Part shown: piece by piece, positions 4,251-23,845 of the stretch
Position numbering within the stretch: position 1 is the stretch's first letter
How the letters are laid out: each line of letters opens with the position of its first letter
Assembly (NCBI GenBank): GCA_964647905.1
Contig: CAZYJR010000002.1
Location: forward strand, 7,198 to 71,197
Reading direction: 5' to 3'
DNA from: an uncultured Desulfobacterales bacterium
GTDB taxonomy: Bacteria > Desulfobacterota > DSM-4660 > Desulfatiglandales > HGW-15
Length of the DNA: 64,000 nucleotides
Program-made: the position numbers and the translations under genes
The notes under the pieces: model-generated
The model's input: the letters and a program-made list of their open reading frames with translations, nothing else
Told to the model about the DNA's origin: nothing
The model's database searches: none

Positions 4251-6436
4251 TCAATGATTCAGGTCCCAATCGTAGAAGAGATACTCCATCTTGGTTTCCC
4301 GCCAGCCATGCTCGATAAAAGACCGTTTTTCATCCTCTTCCAGGTATCGAAGCAGGAACTGCCAAACCCCCCTCTTCCCTCCGAAGTCCTTTTCGTACCA
4401 GTCAAAGATCTGGGAGAGAACGACCTTGTTCTTTTCGGGCAAGACCAGGACCTCGGAGCTGTTCACGAAGCTCTTTGCCGCCGTGTCCAGCTGCTCGTCG
4501 ATCTTGTCCGCCTCGTAAAAGCGGATCGGGGCGCAGGAGCGCGATCCGCACACCAGGGCAAAGTGAACTCGAGGATCGACGCTCGTGAGGGCGAATCCGA
4601 GACGCGGGTCCTTCCTTCGGAAGAAGGGCCGGAGCCTGTACGGGGGGCGTGCGTTGGCCCTCAGGAGGCCGTGCTCCATCGCATCCGGGCTAAAGAAAAG
4701 ATCCCCGATCCGGTAACCGATCTTGCTGAAAAAGTCGGGGATCTCCTTGACGGACCTCTCGATTCCCAGCTCCACGATGCCGTGGATCACAATGGCGTTG
4801 TACAGGTTGATCCAGAAGGCCAGCTTCTCGTCGTCGGATTTGAGGCTCGCGAGATCGAAACGCCGAAGCCCTGCAGCCAGCTCCTGGTAATGACGGTAAT
4901 CCGGAGAACGCCTCAGGGCCGTGTAGTCCACTCTGCCCCGGTGGCGGTCATAGAAGCGATCCTTCAGCCTGCCGATGGCGGCCATCAGGTCCGAGGCCGA
5001 CGAGCCCGGAGGGGCCATTGCATCGCCGCCGGGTCCGTTCAGGATCCTCATCTCCTTCAGGCGATCACGCCTATTCGGTTTGAGCCAGTCGAGGCGGTGC
5101 TTGTCTTCGCTGTAGTATTCCTGGACCAGATCGAGAAACAGGGCCGCAGTCCAGGAGAAGCCATCGGACCCATAGCCTTTTCCCGTGCGGGAGTCGAAGT
5201 ACTCGTGAAAGCCGAAGCGAATGGGAAGCTGGATCATGTCCCTCTTCATGGCATCCGCCTTCTCTGAATACCCGTAGCCTTTCAATCCTTTTGAAACCAT
5301 CCAGTTGATATTGATCCAGACCGGTCCGCGCCAGTAGTTCCTGGAATCAAAGTCCTCCCTCGTCATGTCATAGTTCGGAACGGTGAAGCAGTTCCCCTGG
5401 TGAAGGGCACAGAACGCGATGGAGTCGAGCGTTTCAAAAAGTCTTTGGGCCTGCGCCCCGGAAGCGGCACTTCCGAAAAGGGGCAAGAAACCCGCTGCCG
5501 TGGCGGAGTGGATGAGTCGTCCACCGACCAGGTCAAAGGACTCGAACTGTTTACACTCGGGACACCAGAGAGACCTGGAGATGGCTCCGGACGTCGCCTC
5601 CACCCACTCCTTTATCTCAGATCCGTCCTGCTTCAAGACATCGCTGATCATCAAGAGGTCCCTGTCGGCCCGGCACAAGATGGAGTTGAAGAGCACATCC
5701 CAGATCAGGAAGGGGCATTCCTTCCGAATCTCTTCTTCGCTGTAGTTCAGCCGCCTGAAGAGATTCACCAGGTAGACGTAGCGGTCGTAGTCTTCGTCGC
5801 TTGGTCTTTGATCGGCGGGGACGCCGTGTTCGAGGTCTTTTCGCTCGTAAGCGGGAAGTTTTTCTTTCCGGACTTGAATCCTTTTCAGGGGTTCATCCCA
5901 GGCCGGGGAGTTGTCCAGTCCGGATTCCCAGGGATGCCGGATGTACACAAGCCCCGATGCGTCGGGATCCCTCTCCCGGTAGAGGTAGCGGTGGAGCGCC
6001 ATGAGCTTGGGATACATGAAGCGGAGGAAGTCCCGGGCCGCATCATCATCCTCGGCGGCCTCGAAGATGTGCCGGCAGGCGGTGGCGTGAAGGGGCGGCA
6101 TGGTGATCCCGCTGGTGGGTCTTCCATCAGGCACCCGCCAGAAATCCGGTTCGGGAAAGTAATGCCCCAGCGCCTCCGGGTTGAAGACGATGTGGGGCAG
6201 CATGCCGTTCGGCCACTGCTGCGCAAAGAGGGATGTCAGTTCCCGGCGGGACTTTTTCCGATCGTAGTGGGCATATCCCATGGCAATGAATCCGGAGTCC
6301 CAGTTCCACTGATGGGGGTACAGGCTGGGGGAGGGTTTGGTGTAGGCACCGGTCCAGTTCGCCCTCAGCACCTGCCGGGCCGTGCCTACGTAATCCTTGA
6401 ATCCCTTCGTGGCAAAGAGTCCGAGCATCTCGAATC

Positions 6437-11026: not shown

Positions 11027-12244
11027 CTATGTCTGATCCATAGGAATCAGGAGCGAGGCCCCTATCTTCCGTATCGACTCATCGTCTTGCTCGAGGCATC
11101 TTTCTTTTGCGGCTTTCAGAATCCGCCCTCCTGCCGAATGGTTCCAAAACCACTCGTTGAACTCCCCGACATTGGGGGATGCAGAGCCCGGCCGGGCGGT
11201 CGCGGCCTCGAAGTAAAAAGACTTGAGGTCTTGGGCTGCAAGGCGAAGGGCCGCAGCAAAAGAGAGGTCGGCCTCTGGGATCACGGGATTCTCTCCCGTT
11301 GCGAAGCCACCGATGAACCCCGAGGCCGACTCAGGGCCGAATGTCACCACGGCCGTCCGATCATGCCTCTCGAGGTACAGGTCGTACCATGGACGAAGCT
11401 CTGCCACTTCGCGCTCGAATGCTGCCCTCAGCCTTTCCAGGTCGGTCCCCTCCCGCCATTCCGGGACGAAACCCACCGGACAGGACCAACCCTTCAGGCC
11501 TTCGTCCTCTCCGGCTGCATCCTCGGGCGCCTCGTCCGGGAAATCCTCGAGCAGAGGACCCGCCGGCGCAACCAAGAGCTCCAGCGCCGCCAGGAGCACT
11601 CGGCGCTGAAAACCAGGACTTCCGGGGGCTCCCAGGGGACGCCCGAGCTCAAAGGGTACCCAGAGTGCCCTCGGAGGCCGGATGGCCTCGGTATGCTCTC
11701 GGATCAGGCTGATCTGGGTGGTGGGGATGCCTTCTTCCTCCAAATACTGTCCTAGCGCACCCACGGCGCGCGTGCAGAAAGGTCAGACCGGCACCAAAAG
11801 GGCCCCGTCCACCCCGTCCCCCTTCAGCAGCAGGGCCAGGTTCCGGGCTGCGGGTTCCATTTCGACCGGGTCGGTGGCGCCCATAAACGAGTAGTGATAG
11901 GCCGCAACAGACCCGATGATTCCTTCCGCCGCGAGCTCACGGAGCCGGTCTAGCGGGAAGACCACGTTCCAGTCCTGCTGGAAGCCGGTGCGATCAAAAT
12001 TGGTGGAAATATGGGTCATCACGAGGTCCTTCGCCTCGGTTTCTCCAGGAATCACGCGGTAATCCCCGGTCATCCCGTCGAAGGGTCGATCGCCTCGTCG
12101 CTGAAGCCCCGCGGTTGAGATCAACGAAATCCGCCGGCCGGCAACGGGTTTTCCCGTCACCCAGGGCTGGTTTGCGAACGAAGGGCAAGGAAGTTTGGCC
12201 AGGTGCGATCTCATGGGCTCAATCATGCGCTCCAAGCGTGCCAT
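11027..12244 (-). CDS. GrdB/PrdB-family (glycine/sarcosine/betaine/D-proline reductase selenoprotein B-like) protein, TGA at 11785..11783 read as Sec
   Basis: Track ORFs 11783..12244 and 11027..11764 are in the same frame, separated only by a TGA. The joined sequence reads ...GALLVPV-U-PFCTRAVGALGQYLEEEGIPT.... The junction has the U/C-x-x-C arrangement of this family, and there is no plausible start or RBS for the downstream half. Confidence 0.7.
11755..11771 (-). other. candidate SECIS hairpin for the GrdB-like gene
   Basis: mRNA GCGCGCC-GUG-GGUGCGC forms a 6-7 bp GC-rich stem with a GU-containing apical loop. It starts 11 nt after the UGA. Confidence 0.45.
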
Positions 12245-12311
12245 TCGGGAATCCTTTCCTGTTCTCTGAAAATGGCCTTGTATTTTTACTTAATTTGGTT
12301 TATTTTGTTAT

Positions 12312-12349: not shown

Positions 12350-12667
12350 TCTTTTTCTGCCAGGCGGGTTGCACCGAAAGGCCGGTCGGGTTGTCCAGGG
12401 GCCGACCCTGATTCCTATCCGATCGACCCTTTTCTCGTAGCCGCGAAGTTGACGCCGGATGCGGTACTGTCGCACCACACCGCGCTCGAGTTCACGGAAA
12501 GGCTTACTGGGTTCATACAGCCCTCACCTGTTCGGCATCCCGCCCCCTCGGACCTTTCACATTCCGTGCTCACGTTTCCCGGGGGACGAAGTTTCGTAAA
12601 GCGCTTCCCCGTCTTGGGAAAGAACATTTCGGTGTTTCGATCGCGGAGCGATCCGACCGGGAGTTGA
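12350..12667 (+). pseudogene. AbiEi/COG5340-like antitoxin fragment
   Basis: PIDPFLVAAKLTPDAVLSHHTALEF resembles the central region of AbiEi-type antitoxins. There is no credible N-terminal wHTH or start codon, and the surrounding sequence is degenerate. Confidence 0.3.
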
Positions 12668-13425
12668 GGGTTACGAACCTGGAGGGATCGGGACACCCCC
12701 GCGAGATTCAGGAAGTACGCAATGCCTTTGCTGCCTACGAGACCATGGAGGACTGGGATGCCAGTTCCGAAGAGGATTTATTGGCGGCTCACGAGTTGCT
12801 CATGCGCGGACTCGTGGACGAAACGGGTCGATATCGATCCGGCGGCGTCGGGATCTTCCAGAGTGAGCAGCTGGTGCATATGGCTACTCCTGCCGACCGG
12901 GTGCCCAAGCTGATGGCGGAGCTGCTCGATTGGCTTGCAACTACCCGTGAGCATCCGTTGGTGGCCAGTTGCGTCTTTCACTACGAGTTTGAATTCATTC
13001 ACCCCTTTGCCGACGGCAACGGGAGAGTGGGGCGGTTGTGGCAAACCCTGATCCTGCGCAACTGGAAGCCGCTGCTGGCTTACCTGCCGGCGGAGACAGT
13101 GATTCGCGAACGGCAGGAGGACTGTTACCGCGTGCCGGCGGTGGCTACGACACCATGCCTACGAGTAGAAAAGGGAGGCTTGCGACAAATTCACGATAGG
13201 GCTTGTGACAACCCGGCCATAGAATATCAAGCCGATAGAGACATTCAAATGCATTCTGACCCCGAATTCACCTGGTTCCTTTCCGCCACCCGTGGGCGAA
13301 GAATCCGCAAGGGAGGATCAAACAGGTCTGGTAGAATCCTGGCAGTCTTTTTTTCGGATTGGTTGCGAATACCGAATGCATTGAACGAATTGGAGCCGCC
13401 CCGCCGCCCCTGGCCCCCCGGGTGA
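12664..13425 (+). pseudogene. Fic-domain protein, truncated/decayed
   Basis: Canonical Fic motif HPFADGNGRVGR with flanking helices (PLVASCVFHYEFEFIHPF...LWQTLIL). The usual N-terminal ~100 aa and C-terminal wHTH are missing. Beyond about 13150 the ORF has no Fic-like sequence. Confidence 0.6.
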
Positions 13426-13516
13426 TGCCAGCTAGAAAAAGACAGGCAAAGGCCATCTACTCCGCATTAACCGGCAGCGCGAGCAGCACCCGGGCCATGG
13501 GCGGCGGGGCCAAGGG

Positions 13517-13939
13517 CTACTGGTTTTCTCTCTGCTTCTTGCGCGCCTCAGCCAATTTCCGGCCAAGGTCCTGCTCCTTCGCGACTTTCCTGCGCTTTGC
13601 TGAGAGGGATTTAGCCGAGAGGGGCTGCCGCGCCTTGAATCCGTATTTCGCCTTGTATTCCTTTGGAGTCAGCCCATGGTCCTGGAGATGGCGCTTAGTT
13701 AGAATTTTAAATTTCTTGCCGCACTCGAGACAGGTTACGGAATTCTGTTTGATCGAGCTCTTCGGATCCATATCCGGAGAGGCCGTCTCTTCTTCACCGC
13801 CTTCTTCATTGGCCTTCACGCTCTTTAAGGACTCATAGGTCTTCTTGATCAACTCATTGATTTCCTCAGGGGTGAGCTTGGATACACTAGCTTGTGCCTG
13901 AGCGATTTCTCCTGCCAGTTCATACAATGATTTCGCCAT
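13517..13939 (-). CDS. MucR/Ros family zinc-finger transcriptional regulator
   Basis: VTCLECGKKFKILTKRHLQDHGLTPKEYKAKYGF is the Ros/MucR C2H2-like finger. The ATG at 13939 has an AAGGAGG RBS. The track ORF carries a 47-codon spurious extension. Confidence 0.85.
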   Translation of the reverse strand: MAKSLYELAGEIAQAQASVSKLTPEEINELIKKTYESLKSVKANEEGGEEETASPDMDPKSSIKQNSVTCLECGKKFKILTKRHLQDHGLTPKEYKAKYGFKARQPLSAKSLSAKRRKVAKEQDLGRKLAEARKKQRENQ

Positions 13940-14268
13940 CACGATCCTCCTTTGACATCTTTTGATTTGGTATAGTGCCGGATTATTAATCATTCGGATA
14001 GATAATTCAAGAGGAGAAGTCAAGAAAAGGATTGAAAAAAGGAAATGCTGCTTGGACCGGCGGAACCCAGATGAGATCAATGATGTATGTCATCGTGGGC
14101 GGCAGGCATTGATAAGGCAATCGGTGTTGACCCAAGCGGGAACGGCCTCGCTGTCTTCGAGAGCGATGGGGTGGACGGCCAAACCGAAAGAGGAGCAGTC
14201 ATAAGCGCGGCTCCGGGACCGGCAGGTTTTCGGGCCGGAAACGCAAGGCCTTTTGAACCGGAAAGATT

Positions 14269-14299
14269 GGTCACATATGATCAGTGATCATATGTGACC
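14269..14299. repeat. perfect 31-bp palindrome GGTCACATATGATCA-g-TGATCATATGTGACC
   Basis: Read directly: 15-bp arms with no mismatch and a single central base. Intergenic. Confidence 0.95.
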
Positions 14300-14398
14300 A
14301 GCGGCTTTCATCCTTCCCGCACCCCCGCCCGCCTCCCTTCAATGAAATAACCCTATTAAATCAGATAAATACAGCCAAGTCGCCGGGGGCATGAATTC

Positions 14399-14413
14399 CG
14401 GCACGAGTCTTGA
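14399..14413 (+). promoter_or_regulatory. candidate sigma54 (-24/-12) promoter
   Basis: CGGCACG-AGTC-TTGA against consensus TGGCACG-N4-TTGC, with exact spacing. The -24 GG is present, and -12 is GA rather than GC. It lies ~75 nt upstream of the ABM gene ATG. Confidence 0.35.
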
Positions 14414-14486
14414 GTGGTTGGAGCCCAAGACTTGGGCAAAACGATCGGCGAGCACGGATAGTCGGCTTTGCCGGAAGGTGGCTGCC

Positions 14487-14843
14487 ATGATCATAGTCAG
14501 AATAACCATGCGTGTATTACCTGAAAAGCAGAAAGAAGTGGTTCAGACACTTTTCTCGTTGACCTCTTCCATGGAGAAGGAAACGGGGTGTATCAGCTAT
14601 ACGATTTTCGGCAACATGAAAGACAAGGATGAGCTTTGCGTATTCGAAGAGTGGGAAAAACGCGAAGATTTGGACGATCACCTCAAATCAGACATATTCG
14701 GCGTTTTATTAGGGACAAAGAGCCTGCTGTCTCGATCGCACGGCATTCATATTTATACTGTCCAACAGGCCGAAGGGATGGGCGCAGTTCTAGCTGCACG
14801 CAGGAAGAGAGGCTATCGGATGTTAAAGGAGATCAAAAAATGA
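14487..14843 (+). CDS. antibiotic-biosynthesis-monooxygenase (ABM/YgiN-like) domain protein
   Basis: MIIVRITMRVLPEKQKEVVQTL...CVFEEWEKREDLDDHLKSD fits the ferredoxin-like ABM fold pattern. GGAAGGTGG RBS. The stop overlaps the next start (ATGA). Confidence 0.7.
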   Translation: MIIVRITMRVLPEKQKEVVQTLFSLTSSMEKETGCISYTIFGNMKDKDELCVFEEWEKREDLDDHLKSDIFGVLLGTKSLLSRSHGIHIYTVQQAEGMGAVLAARRKRGYRMLKEIKK

Positions 14844-16342
14844 ACGTTCTACTAATCTACCCCAAATTTCCGGAAACGTTCTGGTCTTTTACCTATGCTC
14901 TTCCATTCATAGGCAAGAAATCGGCCTTCCCGCCGCTCGGCCTCCTTACCGTCGCGGCAATGCTGCCTGAAGAGTGGACCAAGCGCCTGGTGGATGAGAA
15001 CACGGACGAGCTCCTGGATGAGGATCTGGCTTGGGCGGATATGGCCCTTATAAGCGCAATGGCCCTTCAGCGCAAGGCGGCTGCCGGGATCATCGACCGT
15101 TGCAAGGCCGTGGGATTGAAAGTCGTTGCCGGCGGACCGCTCTTTACCGCTGAACCGGACGCCTTCGAGCAGGTGGATCACCTGGTCTTGGGCGAGGCCG
15201 AAGCGATTCTGCCGGCCCTTGTCTCGGATCTGAAGAACGGGTGTGCGAAAAGGGCTTACAGCGCCGAGGGATATCCCGACATTCACGAGACCCCGGTTCC
15301 CTTATGGGATTTGATCCCCATGAATCGCTATGCATCGCTGAACATTCAGTATTCCAGGGGTTGTCCCTTCAATTGCGATTTCTGCAATATTACTGCGCTC
15401 TTCGGCCATAAGCCCCGCATCAAGGCCCCGCAACAGATCGTGGCTGAGCTGGAAGCCATTTATCAGGCTGGTTGGCGGGGCAATATCTTTTTTGTGGACG
15501 ACAACTTCATCGGCAACAAGCGTTCTCTCAAGGAGCAATTGCTTCCGGCCCTGATCGAATGGCGCAAGGGTAAGAAAGGATACGTGTTCTTTACCGAAGC
15601 CTCGATCAATCTCGCCGATGACCCCGAACTCATGAGCATGATGGTCGAAGCCGGATTCGATTCCGTCTTCATCGGCATCGAGACGCCGGACGAGAAAAGC
15701 CTTACCGAGTGCTGCAAGGAACACAACAAAAATAGAGATCTAATTCAAGATGTCAAAAAAATACATCGCTTCGGGTTGCAGGTGATGGGCGGCTTCATCG
15801 TAGGCTTTGATAGCGATACACCCACGATCTTTCAACAGCAAATTGATTTCATACAGAGAAGCGGGATTGTAACAGCCATGGTGGGTCTGCTTCAGGCCCC
15901 TCCGGGAACCCGATTGTTTGAACGCCTTGCGCGAAAACAACGAGTATGCACGGAGTTCTCAGGCGACAATGTAGATGGACGGACCAATATTATTCCAGCC
16001 ATGGGCCTGGAAAAGCTGACCAATGGTTATCGAAAAATCATGAAACAAATCTACTCTCCCCGCAAATACTACCAGCGGGTCAGGTGCATTTTAGGGGAGC
16101 TCAAGCCGGCGGCGGCGACACCGGCCTACGATCGGCAGAGGATCCTTGCGTTTTGGCGCGCCTGCCTGCACCTGGGCGTCTTGGGAAAGGAAAGATTTCA
16201 ATACTGGCGTTTGTTGACATGGACTCTTGCGCGAAGGCCCAGGCTGCTTCCGTTGGCGATCACCCTGGCCATCTACGGCCACAATTACCGGAGGTTGTTC
16301 GAGGCTCATCTTTTTCGGGCGGGGCAGCAAACGACCATTTGA
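14840..16342 (+). CDS. B12-binding domain radical SAM protein with DUF4070-type C-terminus
   Basis: MNVLLIYPKFPETFWSF...PPLGLLTVAAML is the B12-binding N-domain. YSRGCPFNCDFC is the radical SAM cluster motif. The real start is the ATG at 14840, and the track ORF has a 68-codon overlap extension. Confidence 0.85.
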   Translation: MNVLLIYPKFPETFWSFTYALPFIGKKSAFPPLGLLTVAAMLPEEWTKRLVDENTDELLDEDLAWADMALISAMALQRKAAAGIIDRCKAVGLKVVAGGPLFTAEPDAFEQVDHLVLGEAEAILPALVSDLKNGCAKRAYSAEGYPDIHETPVPLWDLIPMNRYASLNIQYSRGCPFNCDFCNITALFGHKPRIKAPQQIVAELEAIYQAGWRGNIFFVDDNFIGNKRSLKEQLLPALIEWRKGKKGYVFFTEASINLADDPELMSMMVEAGFDSVFIGIETPDEKSLTECCKEHNKNRDLIQDVKKIHRFGLQVMGGFIVGFDSDTPTIFQQQIDFIQRSGIVTAMVGLLQAPPGTRLFERLARKQRVCTEFSGDNVDGRTNIIPAMGLEKLTNGYRKIMKQIYSPRKYYQRVRCILGELKPAAATPAYDRQRILAFWRACLHLGVLGKERFQYWRLLTWTLARRPRLLPLAITLAIYGHNYRRLFEAHLFRAGQQTTI

Positions 16343-16415: not shown

Positions 16416-17462
16416 ATGACTGAATGGAATCAACCCCCAGGGGGGGGATCACCGCCGAGTTTGGAGGAAGTAAAGGACAAGATTCGGCAGCAGCTCAAGC
16501 GGGTCAAAGGCGGTCCGGGCCTTATCCTCGCCATTATAGTATTGGTGGTCGTCTTCTGGACCGCATGGTTCACAGTCCAGCCGGAAGAGACCGGGATTGT
16601 GCAGCGCTTTGGAAAAGTCGTGCGCACGGCCGGTCCGGGACTGCACTTCAAAGTGCCTCTCGGTGTCGAAAAGGCCCGTATGGTACCCACGGCCCGCGTA
16701 CTCAAAGAGGAGTTCGGTTTCCGGACGCTGGCCGCCGTTCCAGGCGAAAAGACCCGGTATGATCCAAGCGGCTCCTACAAGGACGAATCCCTGATGCTCA
16801 CCGGCGACCTGAACGTCATTGACGTTCAGTGGATCGTCCAATACCGCATCGAAGACCCGATCCGCTACCTGTTTCATGTTCGCGACACGCCAAAGACGAT
16901 CCGCGACACCTGCGAGGCGATCATGCGCAGGGCGGTGGGCAACCGTATCGGCAGCGATGTCCTGACCACCGGCCGCGTCGCGGTTGCCAGTGAAGCGAAA
17001 GAAGAGATCCAGAAAGTCCTTACGGCCTATGAGTCCGGCGTGCGTTTGGTTACAGTGGAGCTTCAGGATGTTACCCCGCCGGACACCGTAAAGCCCGCCT
17101 TCAATGAAGTCAACGAGTCGCGCCAGGACAAGGAGCGGACGATCAACAAGGCCCAGGAGCAGGCCAACCGGGAAATCCCCAAGGCTCGCGGAGTGGCCAC
17201 CCAAAGTATCAGCGAGGCCGAAGGGTATGCCCTGGAGCGCGTGAACCGGGCCGAAGGAGAGGCCACTCGCTTTTCCGCCATCCTGGGAGAGTACCAAGAG
17301 GCGCCGCAGGTCACGCGCCGGCGCCTGTATCTGGAGGCCATGACGGGTTTACTGGCGGACATGAAGGGGCTCTATATCGTGGATAAGGATCAGAACGCCA
17401 TGGTGCCCTGGATCTCCATGGAGTCCGGCGCGCAACTATCAGCGGAAGGGAGGCAGCCATGA
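16416..17462 (+). CDS. hflK: FtsH protease modulator HflK (SPFH/band 7)
   Basis: N-terminal TM followed by an SPFH domain (VQPEETGIVQRFGK...). The C-terminal EAEGYA..RV..AEGEA.RF repeat region is typical of HflK. Confidence 0.9.
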   Translation: MTEWNQPPGGGSPPSLEEVKDKIRQQLKRVKGGPGLILAIIVLVVVFWTAWFTVQPEETGIVQRFGKVVRTAGPGLHFKVPLGVEKARMVPTARVLKEEFGFRTLAAVPGEKTRYDPSGSYKDESLMLTGDLNVIDVQWIVQYRIEDPIRYLFHVRDTPKTIRDTCEAIMRRAVGNRIGSDVLTTGRVAVASEAKEEIQKVLTAYESGVRLVTVELQDVTPPDTVKPAFNEVNESRQDKERTINKAQEQANREIPKARGVATQSISEAEGYALERVNRAEGEATRFSAILGEYQEAPQVTRRRLYLEAMTGLLADMKGLYIVDKDQNAMVPWISMESGAQLSAEGRQP

Positions 17463-18427
17463 GGCGCACCTTGAAAACGGCGATGATAGCAATATCGGTG
17501 ATAATCTTCATTGCTCTCTATAGTGGGCTCTACACTTTGGAAGAAGGCCGCCAAGCCATTGTCGTACAGTTCGGCAGGCCCGTGGGGGAAACGGTGACAG
17601 AGGCGGGTCTGCACATGAAGCTGCCCTTGATACAAGAGGTCCGGCGATTCGAAAAGCGTCTGATCGCCTGGGACGGTGACCCCAACCAGGTCCCCACCAA
17701 AGGGCGCGAGTTCATCTGGGTGGACACCACCGCCAGATGGCGGATTGCGGACGCGAAAAAGTTCCTGGAGAACGTGGCAAGCGAAGCGGGCGCCCAGTCC
17801 CGCTTGAACGATATTCTCGACTCCGTGGTGCGGGACCAGGTATCGAGCAGCGAGCTCGTAGAGCTCGTACGCAGCGCATCCTGGCAGGTCCCTGAAGACG
17901 AGGTGCTGAAGGAAGTCCCGAAGGAGAGGGAGGAGGAGCTCAAGAGAGAGATCGCCCGCGGGAGGGAGGAGATCACCCGGACGATACTGGCTGAAGCACG
18001 GAAGATCATCCCGCAGTACGGCATAGAGCTCGTGGATGTGCGCATCAAACGCCTGGATTATGTGGAAAGCGTCCGTGAGAAGGTCTATGAGCGCATGATC
18101 TCGGAGCGCAAACGAATCGCCGCTCAGTTCCGCTCCGAAGGCGAGGGACGCAGCGCCGAGATCCTAGGGACGATGGAAAAGGAGCTGCGCCGGATCCGCT
18201 CGACCGCCTACCGCCGGGTCCAGGAGGTCCAGGGCAAGGCCGACGCGGACGCCACGCGGATATACGGTAAAGCCTACAATCAGAACCCCGAATTCTACGC
18301 CTTTTTGCGCACCCTTGAAAGCTACAAGGAAAAAACAAACATGAACTCCGTGATGATCCTCACCACGGACAGCGACTTTTACCAATACATCAAACAGGCC
18401 ACTCCAAGCCAAGCAAAGACACCATAG
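17459..18427 (+). CDS. hflC: FtsH protease modulator HflC (SPFH/band 7)
   Basis: Overlaps the hflK stop. TM followed by an SPFH domain (YTLEEGRQAIVVQFGRP), with an HflC-type C-terminus ...NPEFYAFLRTLESY. Confidence 0.9.
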   Translation: MRRTLKTAMIAISVIIFIALYSGLYTLEEGRQAIVVQFGRPVGETVTEAGLHMKLPLIQEVRRFEKRLIAWDGDPNQVPTKGREFIWVDTTARWRIADAKKFLENVASEAGAQSRLNDILDSVVRDQVSSSELVELVRSASWQVPEDEVLKEVPKEREEELKREIARGREEITRTILAEARKIIPQYGIELVDVRIKRLDYVESVREKVYERMISERKRIAAQFRSEGEGRSAEILGTMEKELRRIRSTAYRRVQEVQGKADADATRIYGKAYNQNPEFYAFLRTLESYKEKTNMNSVMILTTDSDFYQYIKQATPSQAKTP

Positions 18428-18572
18428 GGTCCTTATATGGTAAAGGAGCTGTGCTCCTAAAATCAACACGTATAACCCCGAATCAGGGATGTATAGTGAA
18501 TAATATCTAGTTCAAGCTCACACAAAAGCTTTGATCGAGCCCAGTAAGCCTCCATATTAGGGGAGGAAAGAG

Positions 18573-19040
18573 ATGACTTATAACACCAAAGTCACTATCG
18601 AAAGACGGCCATTTTTACTCAGCAGCGGAATGGAGAAGCATCATTTCAAGCAATATGAGGAAGCCACTGGTCATAGCCGGAGCCTTGTGATCGACGATGA
18701 ACCTAGTATTCTTGAATATGTTGCAAAAATGCTCACCCTATTCGGTTTCAAAGAGGTGGAAACCGTCAAGAGAAAATCCGAGGTTATTAGAAAGTTGACC
18801 GAAAATCCCTACGATTTGTTTCTAACCGACCTGGAGATGCCGGACATGAATGGCTTCCACCTGACCCAAATGGTTCAAAAGGATGTGTATGACACCAAAG
18901 TGGTCATCATGACGGGACGCCTCAAGGACGAGTGTCTTGAGATGATGACCGCGGAGTGGGTGGACGGGTGGCTTTTCAAGCCCTTTGGATTCAGGGATCT
19001 GCGCTCCACGCTCCGGTCTCTGGGGTTACAGAGTGATTGA
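18573..19040 (+). CDS. single-domain response regulator (CheY-like receiver)
   Basis: LVIDDEPSILEYV...LFLTDLEMPDMNGF...KVVIMTGR...WLFKPF carries the phospho-acceptor Asp and the conserved T/K positions. GGGGAGGAAAGAG RBS. Confidence 0.8.
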   Translation: MTYNTKVTIERRPFLLSSGMEKHHFKQYEEATGHSRSLVIDDEPSILEYVAKMLTLFGFKEVETVKRKSEVIRKLTENPYDLFLTDLEMPDMNGFHLTQMVQKDVYDTKVVIMTGRLKDECLEMMTAEWVDGWLFKPFGFRDLRSTLRSLGLQSD

Positions 19041-19243
19041 CACACCGACTATCTCCGGGGGGACCTATCATTTGATACCTGCGTGACCAAGGGACCGATT
19101 GGACCCGCTGGCCCGGTATCTGGACAGTTCCATTAGGCTGCCGGAGACTCATCATATTTTTCAGCCTGCTCGCCTACCTGCTGGTTCATGCGCTCTGGCG
19201 CGGCAAACAATAACATGGAACAAAATTATGAGGATATGAGTTA

Positions 19244-19402
19244 TGGACCTGGTAAGAATAATTATTGCGATACTCCTTCCCCCTTTAGGCGTCTTTCTTC
19301 AGGTGGGCTTTGGCGGAGCCTTCTGGTTGAATATCCTACTGACCCTCTTGGGATACATCCCCGGAATCGTGCACGCGGTCTGGGTCATTGCCAAACGCTG
19401 AG
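19244..19402 (+). CDS. YqaE/Pmp3 family small membrane proteolipid (52 aa, below the ORF-track cutoff)
   Basis: [52 protein letters not shown] contains the family signature LPPLGV...FW.N..LT.LG.IPG..HA. Confidence 0.8.
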
Positions 19403-19716
19403 GAGGTGTCCCACATTTCCGCTCGATGGGGCGCTGGAGTATTCGGGTTTTTTCATACGAGGGGAAGCGGCTTGAGTGCAAAGACAAGGGAGTGATAGCC
19501 GGCGGATGGGCCGGTTCGGACCCGCTGATGGTTCCACCCTTTGCCTGCCGGTTGCGCCCTCAAGACAGACGCGGTATAATCGAAATCATCCGTAATGAAT
19601 CTGAGCACTTTGATAGCATTGGGGCCGGAGCCCCTGCGGCGCTCAGCTCGGTCAGCCCGCCGTTTCGAGCCCAAGCCTTGCGATTTGCTGCTGCCTCGAC
19701 TCCGGGGGGAAACTTC

Positions 19717-21177
19717 ATGCAAAAGACTTTTTTGGAAATATTCAAAAGCGCCCTGAGTTCGATTCGCGAACCCTTGCTCGTGCTTGATTCCGACCTGAGA
19801 GTTTTAGCAGCTAACCATGCTTTTTATCATACCTTCGGCGTCAAACCCGATGAAACTGAGGGAGCCCTTATATACGACCTGGGCAACCGGCAATGGGACA
19901 TCCCCAAGCTCAGGGAGTTACTGGAAGAAATCCTTCCTCAAAACACCGAGTTTCATGATTTTGAGGTGGAACACGACTTCGAGGGCCTCGGCCCGAAGAT
20001 CATGCATTTGAACGCCAGGCGCATCTACAAGGAAGCGGATCAAACACAGCTGATTTTATTGGCCATCGAGGATGTGACCGAGCGTGAGTATTACAAAAGA
20101 CACCTTGAGGAGCTTGTTAAAGAGCGAACCGCCGAGCTCGAAGAGGCGAAACAAACGGCCGAGGCTGCGCTCCTCGAAGTCAAGAAGCTGAAAAGCCAGC
20201 TCGAAGCCGAGAGGGCTTATCTTCAGGAAGAAATCAAGCTGCAGTACAACCATGAGAACATTGTCGGCCAGAGCGACGCAATCAATTATGTCTTTTATAA
20301 GATTGAACAAATAGCCGCCACCGACACGAACGTCTTGATTCTGGGAGAGACCGGAACCGGCAAAGAGTTGGTGGCGCGCGCCATTCACGGCTTGAGCCTG
20401 CGCAAGGATCGCGCCCTGGTCAAAATGAATTGCGCCGCACTGCCTTCCAACCTGATCGAGAGCGAACTCTTCGGCCATGAAAAGGGTGCTTTCACAGGCG
20501 CCGATTCCAGGCGGTTGGGGCGCTTTGAAGTCGCCGACGGGGCCACCCTGTTCTTGGATGAGATCGGCGAGCTGCCCTTGGAACTGCAGCCCAAGCTGCT
20601 CCAGGTAATCGATTCCGGCGAGTTTGAACGCCTGGGCAGCTCCGAGACCAGGAGAGCCGACGTTCGCATCATTGCCGCCACCAACCGCAATCTGGAGGAG
20701 GAAGTCAGCAAGGGCGTTTTCCGGGAAGACCTTTGGTTCCGGCTGAGTGTGTTTCCCGTCACCGTCCCGCCCCTCCGGGACCGCCTGGATGACATCCCGC
20801 TGCTGGTCAATTTTTATGTTGACAGGATTTCAAGGAGACTAGGCAAATACATCAAGGTGGTCCCGGTGAATGTCATGGACGCGCTGCGGCGATACCATTG
20901 GCCCGGCAATGTGCGCGAGCTGGAAAACGTCCTTGAACGGGCGGTTATCAACTCTTCCGGGCCCAAGTTGAGGCTGGTTGATGAATTGAAAATGCCTCAA
21001 AAAGATGCCTCAAAAGCTGAAAAAACCTTGGAAAATGTAGGACGTGAATATATAACGCGTGTGCTCGAGCAGGTACAATGGAAAGTGAGCGGCAAGAACA
21101 GTGCCGCTGAAATCCTTGGACTGGATCGCAGCACGTTGCGCGCCCGCATGCGCAAGCTCAACATCCGCAAACCCTAA
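19717..21177 (+). CDS. sigma54-dependent transcriptional activator: PAS + coiled coil + AAA+ + Fis-type HTH (no receiver domain)
   Basis: GETGTGKE Walker A, GAFTGA sigma54-contact loop, and a C-terminal [22 protein letters not shown]. The N-terminal domain is PAS-like ([21 protein letters not shown]). The ATG at 19717 is chosen because the upstream 97 codons of the track ORF look non-coding. Confidence 0.9.
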
Positions 21178-22499: not shown

Positions 22500-22775
22500 T
22501 CAGCTGCCCGCCACCTCCTCCTTGAGGTTCTTTCCCGGAACGAATTTGGGCACGTTTCTGGCTTCGATAATGATTTCCTCGCCGGTGGTGATCTTCCGGG
22601 CCTTGCGCTCCCGCCTGAGCTCCGGCTTGAAGGTGCCGAAGCCCACCACGGTCACCGACTCACCCTTTGACAGCGCGTCCCTGATGCTGTCAAAGACCGC
22701 CTCCACCGCCGCCTGGGCCTCCTTTTTGGTGGGCAACACCTTGGCCACCTCTTCCACCAGGTCCTTCTTCCTCAT
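22500..22775 (-). CDS. hup: HU family DNA-binding protein
   Basis: MRKKDLVEEVA...VTVVGFGTFKPELRRERKARKITTGEEIIIEARNVPKFVPGKNLK fits the HU/IHF fold at 91 aa. The track ORF has a 38-codon extension. Confidence 0.9.
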   Translation of the reverse strand: MRKKDLVEEVAKVLPTKKEAQAAVEAVFDSIRDALSKGESVTVVGFGTFKPELRRERKARKITTGEEIIIEARNVPKFVPGKNLKEEVAGS

Positions 22776-22878
22776 GGTCTCGTCCATACTCAAGCTCCTT
22801 TCGTAATCTTTCATTGATCTCCGCTCTTCGGGGAGCGACCCGCCCGGGGATCCGTGGTCGTCCTCCTGGAGACGAGTC

Positions 22879-22908
22879 ATGATACCCAATCGGCCGAGCT
22901 CAGGGCAA
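22879..22908 (-). promoter_or_regulatory. candidate sigma70 promoter for the HU gene
   Basis: The minus strand reads TTGCCC-N18-TATCAT, ~100 nt upstream of the ATG at 22775. Confidence 0.25.
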
Positions 22909-23211: not shown

Positions 23212-23628
23212 TCATGGAGCTGTTAGCGGATTCTCCACCCGCACGCCCCTGATGACCTGTCCATCGTTTAAGTCCTCGCTCCAAAGAATTTCACAATGGG
23301 CACTTTCGGCCGCCGCCACAATGAGTGAATCCCAGAAGGATATTCGATTGATAACGCCGCAGTCGATAGCACTATAAATGATCGTGGGATCAATGACTAC
23401 GACCTCGAATTGTTCAAAAGCATGCAAAACATCTTTCACCAGTAACGGATCTGCACCAAGCTTTTTTGTTGCGGTTACGTAAAATTCTTGCATGACCTGC
23501 GTGGAAACGACACCGTGAGAATCATTCACTACTGATTTCAATAGGGAGCGGCATCTTTCTCGTTTTGCCGGATCGAATCTATCCATAGAATATACGAGAA
23601 TATTGGTGTCGATGAAGACTTTAGGCAT
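23212..23628 (-). CDS. vapC: PIN-domain toxin (VapC-like)
   Basis: MPKVFIDTNILVY...QVMQEF...FWDSLIVAAA...LWSEDL carries the PIN acidic residues D-E-D-D. It overlaps the upstream antitoxin gene by 8 nt. Confidence 0.85.
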   Translation of the reverse strand: MPKVFIDTNILVYSMDRFDPAKRERCRSLLKSVVNDSHGVVSTQVMQEFYVTATKKLGADPLLVKDVLHAFEQFEVVVIDPTIIYSAIDCGVINRISFWDSLIVAAAESAHCEILWSEDLNDGQVIRGVRVENPLTAP

Positions 23629-23845
23629 CGTATAGGTCCTCTCGCTTCCACCTTTTGCCTTCAGAGTTCGCTTCTGTTTGATCCATCAGCCTAAAGCATT
23701 CATCTAACCAATCTTTGGATTCGGATCTTACGGTTTGTTCAAGTAGCCTTCGTATGAGGGCATTCATCGAGGTATCATGCATCTGTGCATACTTTCTCCC
23801 CGCCTTTAGGAGATCCTCGTCTAAGGAAATGGTTATATTGGGCAT
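23621..23845 (-). CDS. vapB: ribbon-helix-helix type antitoxin (VapB-like)
   Basis: MPNITISLDEDLLKAGRKYAQMHDTSMNALIRRLLEQ fits the RHH/CopG pattern. GGAGGTG RBS. The gene overlaps the PIN gene. Confidence 0.7.
   Translation of the reverse strand: MPNITISLDEDLLKAGRKYAQMHDTSMNALIRRLLEQTVRSESKDWLDECFRLMDQTEANSEGKRWKREDLYDA

What the first reader, a model, noticed from the sequence alone, without database searches (positions are those of the whole stretch)
14269..14299. Perfect 31-bp palindrome in an intergenic region
GGTCACATATGATCA-g-TGATCATATGTGACC has 15-bp arms with no mismatch. It contains nested palindromes (CATATG and TGATCA). It is the longest perfect inverted repeat I saw in the window. 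It lies between the MucR gene and the ABM/B12-rSAM operon, with its centre 116 bp upstream of a sigma54-like -24/-12 element. That is the classic position for an enhancer-binding-protein UAS. An AT-rich tract (14341..14375) lies between the two and could supply an IHF-type bend.
Basis: seen in the sequence. Interest (0 to 1): 0.55.

Follow-up and report, generated by a model that had tools for sequence, protein, structure and literature searches.

The report
Enhancer site of a sigma-54 promoter
The perfect palindrome is real and is most likely the conserved docking site (enhancer) for an activator protein that switches on a sigma-54 promoter 116 bp downstream, driving an ABM / radical-SAM / HflK-HflC operon in sulfate-reducing Desulfobacterales. 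It is a well-known kind of switch, found here in a regulon that the papers I could search do not describe.

Summary
The palindrome exists. It is slightly larger than reported: 33 bp, 14268-14300, with 16-nt arms. It is unique in the window and far beyond chance (100 shuffles gave at most 13-nt arms).

It is not a dispersed repeat, a hairpin or a MucR operator.

Eleven diverged ABM-type loci from Desulfobacterales show the same layout, and so do two further promoters in front of unrelated genes:
- two adjacent 16-bp palindromic units (consensus TGRTCAYATRTGAYCA), with centres 17 bp apart;
- a conserved IHF-like box (TTAAATCAG-N4-ATA);
- a -24/-12 element, (C/T)GGCAC-N5-TTGA.

The distance from the palindrome centre to the -24 GG is 115-119 bp in all 13 promoters, although the DNA between them has diverged freely.

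Changes between the arms are not compensatory, so the constraint points to protein binding rather than to a DNA or RNA structure.

The upstream neighbour gene differs from locus to locus. MucR is present only in the window.

The one regulator that recurs is the PAS-AAA+-HTH sigma-54 activator at 19717-21177. Its orthologues are 78-95% identical and have an invariant recognition helix. They share a contig with the element in five cases, and in one they lie directly beside it.

It is a new member of a known kind. Nothing here was tested experimentally.

The parts
14268..14300 (.). Upstream activating sequence (UAS): a 33-bp perfect palindrome made of two adjacent 16-bp palindromic units
   Evidence: Searches show it is real, unique and non-random. 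Searches show it is conserved in 11 ABM-type promoters and recurs at 2 further promoters, always 115-119 bp upstream of the -24 GG.
14268..14283 (.). Unit 1, TGGTCACATATGATCA. An imperfect 16-bp palindrome matching the consensus TGRTCAYATRTGAYCA; inferred binding site for one activator dimer
   Evidence: Position-weight matrix (PWM) built from 21 units, 27.0 bits. Shuffled windows give 0-2 hits of 11 bits or more.
14285..14300 (.). Unit 2, TGATCATATGTGACCA. The mirror image of unit 1, with its centre 17 bp from that of unit 1
   Evidence: Every locus has two adjacent units; L015 has a third.
14356..14372 (+). Conserved box TTAAATCAGATAAATAC containing an IHF-like site AATCAG-ATAA-ATA (14359-14371). 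It matches WATCAR-N4-TTR with one mismatch and lies about midway between the UAS and the promoter
   Evidence: Conserved block. The consensus, and a near-identical AATCAGAATAAAA site in the D. vulgaris orp1 promoter, are in PMC3897727.
14399..14415 (+). Sigma-54-type promoter CGGCACGAGTCTTGAGT. The -24 GG is at 14400-14401 and the -12 position reads GA at 14412-14413. The transcription start is inferred at about 14425
   Evidence: GGCACGA-n-T-n-TTGA-n-T is invariant or nearly so in all ABM-type loci. The two secondary targets carry TGGCAC-N5-TTGAA.
14463..14489 (+). Conserved translation-initiation block CGGCTTTGCCGGAAGGTGGCTGCCATG (Shine-Dalgarno sequence plus the ABM start codon)
   Evidence: It stays next to the ABM gene even where a KH-domain gene is inserted between the promoter and ABM.
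14487..14843 (+). First gene of the controlled operon: an ABM-domain protein (YgiN-like), 118 aa
   Evidence: Pfam PF03992. It is the constant first or second gene downstream of the element in 11 loci.
14840..16342 (+). B12-binding radical SAM protein with a DUF4070 domain
   Evidence: No NCBIfam equivalog match reaches its cut-off.
16416..17462 (+). hflK (SPFH/Band 7 family; modulator of the FtsH protease)
   Evidence: TIGR01933, 273.8 bits against a cut-off of 159.4.
17459..18427 (+). hflC
   Evidence: TIGR01932, 274.1 bits against a cut-off of 134.4. In L016 and L017 ftsH follows.
19717..21177 (+). PAS-AAA+-HTH_8 sigma-54 enhancer-binding protein with a GAFTGA motif: the best candidate for the protein that binds the palindrome
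   Evidence: the only GAFTGA hit in the 64 kb; 80% identical to the copy in the Desulfatitalea locus; five contig lengths shared with ABM homologues; in L019 its gene ends 117 bp before the UAS; the recognition helix is invariant in 120 orthologues.

Best explanation
The palindrome is the upstream activating sequence (enhancer) of a sigma-54-dependent promoter that drives the ABM / B12-radical-SAM / hflK / hflC operon. It consists of two adjacent 16-bp palindromic sites (TGRTCAYATRTGAYCA). Each site is inferred to bind one dimer of an enhancer-binding protein through its Fis-type helix-turn-helix domain, and the two dimers together would nucleate the active AAA+ oligomer. The element is centred about 141 bp upstream of the inferred transcription start. 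An IHF-type protein bound at the conserved TTAAATCAG-N4-ATA box (about -60) is inferred to bend the DNA so that the bound activator touches RNA polymerase-sigma-54 sitting closed on CGGCACG-N4-TTGA. ATP hydrolysis by the activator then opens the promoter. The most likely activator is the PAS-AAA+-HTH protein encoded 5 kb downstream (19717-21177), whose PAS domain would receive the so far unknown signal. Shown: the sequence, the conservation, the fixed spacing and the gene linkage. Inferred: the binding, the looping, sigma-54 dependence, the identity of the activator and the signal.
For: 1. The element is non-random and single-copy.
2. Phylogenetic footprinting: in L001 the 33 bp are identical while the flanks are scrambled. 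In 11 ABM-type promoters only four blocks survive: the UAS, the IHF-like box, the -24/-12 element and the ribosome-binding region.
3. The distance from the UAS centre to the GG is 115-119 bp in 13 promoters. Two of these sit in front of unrelated genes: L007 6008->6125 (a PRC-like gene) and L016 18449->18565 (an Ice_binding/SpaA_2 gene). The spacing is therefore a functional constraint, not only shared ancestry. 116 bp is about 11 helical turns.
4. The repeated unit is a 16-bp dyad with half-site centres 10 bp apart. There are two units per promoter and three in Desulfatitalea.
5. Differences between the arms (0-6 mismatches in 12 of the 13 promoters, 13 in the degenerate L016b copy) are not compensated, which fits a protein site rather than a stem.
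6. The upstream neighbour differs in every locus: MucR, REC-DUF4388, a histone-deacetylase-family gene, a TPR protein, GntR, a radical SAM gene or the activator itself. The element therefore travels with the downstream promoter.
7. The window encodes an activator with an intact GAFTGA motif, so the organism uses sigma-54.
8. Orthologues of this activator share a contig with ABM homologues in five cases: contig lengths 204513, 868698, 44943, 110279 and 40786 appear in both hit lists. The distances are 5 kb (window), 7 kb (L015), about 17 kb (L010/L018) and immediately adjacent (L019).
9. The activator is 78-95% identical across more than 100 clusters and its recognition helix is invariant, matching the near-invariant UAS.
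10. Experimentally proven systems have the same architecture: OrpR/IHF/sigma-54 in Desulfovibrio vulgaris, with the activator site at -131 and IHF between it and the promoter (PMC3897727 and PMC8359166), and the 40-bp AtoC palindrome in E. coli (PMC3118216).
Against: There is no experimental evidence of any kind: no mapped transcription start, no binding assay, no rpoN dependence.

The -12 box is TTGA in every one of the 13 promoters, not the canonical TTGC. The -24 box of the ABM promoters starts with C, not T. The site therefore has 3 mismatches to the usual consensus, and a consensus scan of the window is at chance level.

The IHF-like box has one mismatch (ATA instead of TTR). A similar site, orp1 IHF1, was not the functional one in D. 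vulgaris.

The activator is not within 10 kb of the element in L016 and L017. No second copy of the site lies near the activator gene in the window.

Unit centres 17 bp apart would put the two dimers on different faces of the helix, which is unlike the NtrC sites at glnAp2 (from my own knowledge).
Confidence: 0.8

Rival explanations
1. The palindrome is a sigma-54 enhancer, but its activator is not the PAS protein at 19717-21177. It could instead be an NtrC-type response regulator like those encoded next to the element in L001 and L010, or some other unlinked activator.
For: L001 has a histidine kinase and a 455-aa REC-AAA+-HTH regulator 2 kb upstream of the UAS. L010 has a similar pair transcribed divergently, 0.9 kb from the UAS. 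The PAS activator is absent from the 10-kb flanks of L016 and L017. Desulfobacteria carry 50-70 enhancer-binding proteins per genome (PMC12316311), so there are many candidates.
Against: The two NtrC-type proteins are only 48% identical. More than 100 unrelated NtrC-family clusters are closer (55-78%) to the L001 protein than the L010 protein is, so the two are not orthologues. None of the contigs holding their homologues matches a contig holding an ABM homologue, apart from L001 itself. With about one activator gene per 100 kb, finding some activator within a few kb in 2 of about 10 loci is roughly what chance predicts. The L010 contig also carries the PAS activator.
Confidence: 0.17
2. The palindrome is the operator of a conventional dimeric or tetrameric transcription factor (for example GntR/HutC-like, TetR-like, or MucR) that represses or activates the divergent genes without any involvement of sigma-54.
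For: TGGTCA-N4-TGACCA resembles GntR/HutC-type operators such as TGGTCTAGACCA (from my own knowledge). L017 has a GntR-FCD gene transcribed divergently. MucR is the divergent neighbour in the window. The -12 box is non-canonical.
Against: No transcription factor of these families recurs beside the element. MucR occurs only in the window's own genome, and GntR only in L017. The element keeps a 115-119 bp distance to a conserved GGCAC-N5-TTGA box, with an IHF-like box between them. A local operator acting on a sigma-70 promoter would not need such spacing. No conserved -35/-10 pair is present; the sigma-70 scan gave chance-level hits only.
Confidence: 0.08
3. The palindrome works as a nucleic-acid structure or as a mobile or repeat element: a cruciform, a terminator or RNA hairpin, a REP/MITE copy, or a cluster of methylation or restriction sites (GATC, CATATG, TGATCA).
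For: As a single strand it folds at -17.4 kcal/mol, z = -7.2. It contains two GATC, two CATATG and two TGATCA sites.
Against: No T-tract follows it on either strand, and the terminator scan does not report it. There is no Rfam match. It lies upstream of both inferred promoters, so it is probably not transcribed. In the relatives the arms differ at 2-6 positions without compensation (13 in one degenerate copy), and the GATC and CATATG sites are lost in L004, L005 and L010 while the 16-bp unit pattern is kept. There is a single copy per locus. One exact copy was found across one genome for each of 185,579 species, and the metagenome scan gave no genuine hit.
Confidence: 0.03

Closest known systems
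OrpR (DVU2106) / IHF / sigma-54 control of the orp operons in Desulfovibrio vulgaris Hildenborough
   Same: A one-component PAS-AAA+-HTH activator in a sulfate reducer. A palindromic UAS lies at about -131, an IHF site (WATCAR-N4-TTR type, e.g. AATCAGAATAAAA) lies between the UAS and the -24/-12 promoter, and the activator gene is co-localised with its target (PMC3897727 and PMC8359166).
   Different: The OrpR site is a single 17-bp imperfect palindrome, GGGCGYRTTTTGCGCCC, unrelated in sequence. The OrpR PAS domain has three conserved cysteines that hold a [4Fe-4S] cluster, whereas the PAS region of the window's protein has no cysteine (sequence). The target genes differ (orp versus ABM / radical SAM / hflKC). 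Here the -12 box is TTGA.
AtoC enhancer of the E. coli atoDAEB operon
   Same: The experimentally verified activator site is one long palindrome made of two inverted copies of a shorter site (2 x 20 bp = 40 bp), upstream of a sigma-54 promoter (PMC3118216). This is the same construction as the 2 x 16 bp + 1 element here.
   Different: AtoC is a two-component response regulator. The sequence is unrelated. Here each 16-bp unit is itself a dyad.
NtrC-glnAp2, NifA-nifH and XylR-Pu enhancer architectures (textbook sigma-54 systems; from my own knowledge)
   Same: Dyad-symmetric activator sites about 100-150 bp upstream, a face-of-the-helix dependence, DNA looping aided by IHF (nifH, Pu), and tandem sites that nucleate an oligomer.
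   Different: Different site sequences and spacing (NtrC sites are about 32 bp apart, here 17 bp). Those promoters have a canonical -12 GC. Membership of any of those regulons is excluded by sequence.
Predicted activator regulons of the D. vulgaris sigma-54 regulome (Kazakov et al. 2015)
   Same: The inference is of the same kind: conserved inverted repeats such as yGTCA-N6-TGACr upstream of conserved tGGcacg/tTGCt promoters, mostly about 100 nt away (PMC4641369).
   Different: This motif (GTCA-N4-TGAC inside a 16-bp unit, present twice) was not found in that paper's main text. The exact site strings were not found in any searchable paper.

Membership tests
Sigma-54-dependent promoter with an upstream enhancer (UAS bound by an enhancer-binding protein) | -24 GG and -12 GC elements with exactly 10 bp between the dinucleotides | tested here: inconclusive
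   GGCACG and the GG-N10 spacing are present and invariant in 13 promoters, but the -12 dinucleotide is GA (TTGA) in all of them. The site has 3 mismatches to TGGCAC-N5-TTGCW.
Sigma-54-dependent promoter with an upstream enhancer (UAS bound by an enhancer-binding protein) | A dyad-symmetric activator site about 80-200 bp upstream, at a position fixed relative to the promoter | tested here: met
   Two 16-bp dyads are centred 115-119 bp upstream of the GG in 13 promoters.
Sigma-54-dependent promoter with an upstream enhancer (UAS bound by an enhancer-binding protein) | The genome encodes sigma-54 and an activator with a GAFTGA loop and a DNA-binding domain | tested here: met
   An activator with GAFTGA and an HTH_8 domain lies at 19717-21177. 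rpoN itself is not in the window and was not looked for elsewhere.
Sigma-54-dependent promoter with an upstream enhancer (UAS bound by an enhancer-binding protein) | An IHF site or an intrinsic bend between the UAS and the promoter | tested here: inconclusive
   The conserved box AATCAG-N4-ATA matches 8 of the 9 specified positions of WATCAR-N4-TTR and lies at about -60. Binding was not tested.
Sigma-54-dependent promoter with an upstream enhancer (UAS bound by an enhancer-binding protein) | Transcription requires rpoN and ATP hydrolysis by the activator, and the start site lies about 12 nt downstream of the -12 element | not testable with these tools
   This needs 5'-end mapping, mutants or in-vitro transcription.
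Dispersed repeat element (REP / MITE) | Many copies scattered in a genome, usually between convergent genes or near gene ends, with no fixed relation to promoters | tested here: not met
   One copy in 64 kb. One or two sites per 20-kb locus, each followed at 116-117 bp by a -24/-12 box. A single exact hit in one genome for each of 185,579 species. The rest of the source genome was not available.
Intrinsic terminator or structured RNA | A stem kept through compensatory changes, a T-tract or an Rfam model match, and a location inside a transcript | tested here: not met
   No T-tract and no terminator call. No Rfam hit. Differences between the arms are uncompensated.
MucR/Ros operator | The site co-occurs with a mucR gene, and it has the AT-rich, non-palindromic character of known MucR targets (from my own knowledge) | tested here: not met
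   MucR is adjacent only in the window and in contigs identical to it (L012-L014). It is absent from the held flanks of all 9 other independent loci.
OrpR regulon | UAS sequence GGGCGYRTTTTGCGCCC, and a PAS domain with three conserved cysteines | tested here: not met
   The motif is different, and there is no cysteine in residues 1-130 of the window's activator. It works like OrpR but is not a member of that regulon.

The most novel reading that the evidence does not exclude
The palindrome may mark a so far undescribed sigma-54 regulon that is widely conserved in Desulfobacterales and perhaps in other Thermodesulfobacteriota. In this reading, one extremely conserved PAS activator (78-95% identical across more than 100 protein clusters) controls membrane-protein quality control (HflK/HflC, and FtsH in some genomes) together with an ABM protein, a B12 radical SAM enzyme and a few surface proteins. 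It would act through a tandem 16-bp enhancer and a regulon-specific, non-canonical -12 box (TTGA) that may enforce strict dependence on the activator and on IHF.
Probability: 0.5. Interest if true: 0.45.

Novelty: new member of a known kind. Interest (0 to 1): 0.35.

Why it matters
The finding supplies a precise, testable cis-element (TGRTCAYATRTGAYCA, present twice) and a named candidate activator for an operon that links HflKC (and FtsH in relatives) with an ABM protein and a B12 radical SAM enzyme. Desulfobacteria carry 50-70 sigma-54 activators per genome, according to the paper read.

The motif plus its fixed 116-bp offset to GGCAC-N5-TTGA can be used as a search rule to list the whole regulon in any Desulfobacterales genome.

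The uniformly non-canonical -12 box is a small natural experiment on sigma-54 promoter strength. The mechanism itself is textbook, so the value lies in annotation and regulon discovery rather than in concept.

Tried and rejected
- Rfam on 13000-15500 with permissive thresholds: no match.
- Sigma-70 promoter and terminator scans of the intergenic region: chance-level numbers. One sigma-70-like hit overlaps the palindrome but it is not conserved.
- Consensus-only sigma-54 scan of the window: 26 hits against 24.7 expected. The real site is not even among them, so consensus matching is uninformative here.
- Metagenome scan with the 21-bp core: the single hit (L002) is an unrelated AT-rich tandem repeat.
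- The small ORFs overlapping the palindrome (14087-14287 plus strand, 14077-14274 minus strand): the plus-strand ORF has no Pfam hit, and the surrounding sequence is not conserved in L001, so they were rejected as genes.
- NtrC-type regulators next to the element in L001 and L010: not orthologous to each other, so their adjacency is probably chance.
- Comparison of the REC protein upstream in L003 with the window's REC protein (18573-19040): only 28% identity, not informative.
- A lone 16-bp unit just after the activator gene in L018: no correctly spaced -24/-12 box follows it, so it was left unexplained.
- Search of the paper library for the motif strings and for sigma-54 control of hflKC: nothing relevant.
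- Terminator scan between hflC and the activator gene, to decide whether the activator is co-transcribed with the operon: uninformative.

Full report
**Observation.** The sequence at 14269-14299 is as reported. The perfect symmetry runs one base further on each side: TGGTCACATATGATCA-g-TGATCATATGTGACCA, 14268-14300, with 16-nt arms. It is the longest perfect inverted repeat in the window. In 100 shuffles of the window the longest perfect arm with a spacer of 5 nt or less was 7-13 nt. The half-site does not recur in the 64 kb even with 3 mismatches.

**Gene context.**
- MucR lies at 13517-13939 on the minus strand.
- On the plus strand follow an ABM protein (14487-14843), a B12-binding radical SAM protein with DUF4070 (14840-16342), and two Band 7 proteins. 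NCBIfam identifies these above cut-off as HflK (16416-17462) and HflC (17459-18427).
- Next come a stand-alone receiver protein (18573-19040), a Pmp3 proteolipid (19243-19401) and a PAS-AAA+-HTH_8 sigma-54 activator (19717-21177).
- The true ABM start is the ATG at 14487. The alignment with a relative becomes conserved only from the ribosome-binding site just before it.
- Rfam finds nothing in the intergenic region.

**Copies elsewhere.**
- An exact search of one genome for each of 185,579 species returned a single locus, L001, from a Desulfobacterales MAG. There the 33 bp are identical while the flanks are diverged beyond recognition, and the upstream genes are different, with no MucR.
- A metagenome scan with the 21-bp core returned only an unrelated tandem repeat.
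- The element is therefore not a dispersed repeat.

**Unbiased collection of homologous promoters.** I collected loci through homologues of the ABM protein and later of the activator. In 11 independent ABM-type loci (window, L001, L003, L004, L005, L007, L010, L015 = Desulfatitalea tepidiphila, L016, L017, L019) only four blocks of the upstream region are conserved:
1. the palindrome;
2. TTAAATCAG-N4-ATA(C);
3. (GCCGG-N11-)CCGGCACGA-n-T-n-TTGA-n-T;
4. the ribosome-binding region next to the ABM start codon.

Where a KH-domain gene has been inserted (L007, L015, L019), blocks 1-3 sit upstream of the KH gene and block 4 stays with the ABM gene.

**Anatomy of the element.**
- Each 16-nt arm is itself an imperfect palindrome.
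- A symmetrised matrix built from 21 units gives TGRTCAYATRTGAYCA. G2/C15 are nearly invariant and A8/T9 are invariant.
- Every promoter has two units with centres 17 bp apart. Desulfatitalea has a third unit 8 bp further upstream.
- Among the ABM-type relatives the two arms differ at 0-5 positions, and the changes are not compensatory. The GATC and CATATG sub-sites are lost in several relatives.
- Selection therefore acts on two protein-binding dyads, not on a stem. The perfect 33-bp symmetry of the window is a by-product of two near-consensus units in mirror orientation.
- The DNA strand can fold on its own (-17.4 kcal/mol), but nothing suggests that this is used.

**Spacing, and a regulon.**
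- The distance from the palindrome centre to the GG of the -24 box is 115-119 bp in all 11 ABM-type loci.
- The matrix scan also found two further instances in front of unrelated genes:
  - L007: site centred at 6008, then TGGCACATAGCTTGAA with GG at 6125 (117 bp), upstream of a PRC-like gene.
  - L016: site centred at 18449, then TGGCACACAAATTGAA with GG at 18565 (116 bp), upstream of an Ice_binding/SpaA_2 gene.
  - Both are documented.
- The same offset at non-homologous genes shows a functional constraint, about 11 helical turns, and shows that the site defines a small regulon.
- All 13 promoters carry TTGA rather than the canonical TTGC at -12.

**Which protein binds.**
- The upstream neighbour differs in every locus, and MucR occurs only in the window's own genome, so MucR is not supported.
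- The only GAFTGA-containing protein found in the window is the PAS activator.
- Its orthologue is 80% identical in Desulfatitalea and lies 7 kb downstream of the operon there.
- On contig JBGSLR010000029 (L019) the activator gene ends 117 bp before the UAS.
- On contig Ga0209163_1000818 the activator and the ABM promoter are about 17 kb apart.
- A fifth contig length (40786) appears in both the ABM and the activator hit lists.
- The activator family is unusually conserved: 78-95% identity over more than 100 clusters. Its recognition helix, [11 protein letters not shown], is invariant, in keeping with a nearly invariant site.
- The NtrC-type regulators beside the element in L001 and L010 are only 48% identical, and more than 100 other NtrC-family clusters are closer to the L001 protein. 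They are not orthologues, and their adjacency is about what chance gives in genomes with 50-70 such activators.
- In L016 and L017 no activator lies within 10 kb, so the linkage is frequent but not obligatory.

**Mechanism.** The best-supported model is a classical sigma-54 enhancer:
- Two activator dimers bind on the tandem dyads at about -141.
- An IHF-type bend forms at about -60. The box AATCAGATAAATA matches 8 of the 9 specified positions of WATCAR-N4-TTR, and the D. vulgaris orp1 promoter carries a near-identical site.
- The closed RNA polymerase-sigma-54 complex on CGGCACG-N4-TTGA is then opened by the looped-in AAA+ oligomer.
- The weak -12 box may make the promoter depend more strongly on IHF and the activator. 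That last point is my inference from general knowledge of weak sigma-54 promoters.
- The signal sensed by the cysteine-free PAS domain is unknown.

**Comparison with known systems.**
- The closest proven analogue is OrpR/IHF/sigma-54 in Desulfovibrio vulgaris (PMC3897727, PMC8359166). The site sequence, the chemistry of the PAS sensor and the target genes all differ, so this is not an OrpR regulon.
- The closest analogue for a long palindrome built from two sites is the 40-bp AtoC site (PMC3118216).
- No paper in the searchable library contains the motif strings or describes sigma-54 control of hflKC.

**Verdict.** It is a new member of a well-known kind of regulatory element. Confidence that it is a sigma-54 enhancer is about 0.8. 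Confidence that the PAS activator at 19717-21177 is its partner is about 0.6. All functional steps are inferred from comparative data.

Noticed in passing
window 11027-12289 (minus strand): Two stop-free segments in the same frame are separated by a single in-frame TGA at 11783-11785 (context Pro-Val-TGA-Pro-Phe-Cys). The part upstream of the TGA matches Pfam GRDB. This is probably a GrdB-like selenoprotein in which the TGA encodes selenocysteine.
   Followed up: partly
window 14399-14415, and all 13 related promoters (L001, L003, L004, L005, L007 twice, L010, L015, L016 twice, L017, L019): Every promoter linked to this enhancer has TTGA instead of the canonical TTGC at the -12 position. The deviation appears to be specific to this regulon and conserved within it.
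   Followed up: partly
window 14382-14402: A short inverted repeat, GCCGG-N11-CCGGC, overlaps the -24 box. It is conserved in most ABM-type promoters but absent from the two secondary targets. It could be a second protein site.
   Followed up: no
window 19243-19401 (plus strand): A 52-aa Pmp3/YqaE proteolipid gene (PF01679, E = 1e-22) lies between the stand-alone receiver gene and the activator gene. The longer ORF at 19188-19475 is probably not the real gene.
   Followed up: partly
window 22500-22889 (minus strand): An HU/IHF-family DNA-binding protein gene. It scores below every NCBIfam IHF-alpha, IHF-beta and HU equivalog cut-off, so its subtype is unclear.
   Followed up: partly
L015 9422-9437 (Desulfatitalea tepidiphila, contig BCAG01000006): A third consensus unit, TGATCATATATGACCA, lies 8 bp upstream of the usual pair, giving three activator sites at this promoter.
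   Followed up: no
L007 5992-6140 and L016 18433-18580: These are the two secondary targets of the same enhancer-plus-promoter module, in front of a PRC-like gene and an Ice_binding/SpaA_2/IPTL-CTERM surface protein gene. In both, the second unit is degenerate.
   Followed up: partly
L018 11560-11575: A lone unit, GGGTCGTATATGATCA, lies 69 bp after the stop codon of the PAS activator gene. The nearby TGGCAT...TTGAA has the wrong spacing for a sigma-54 promoter. Its function, if any, is unknown.
   Followed up: no
L010 2482-2512: A different 31-bp near-palindrome, GGCGGTCAGTCTGTTCAGCAGATTGACCGCC, lies about 250 bp upstream of the enhancer, in the gap next to a divergently transcribed NtrC-type regulator. 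It is possibly that regulator's own site.
   Followed up: no
window 12664-13425 (plus strand) and 23212-23685 (minus strand): A Fic/DOC-family gene and a PIN-domain gene flank the region. MucR and Fic are absent from the homologous loci, which suggests local gene turnover upstream of the operon.
   Followed up: no
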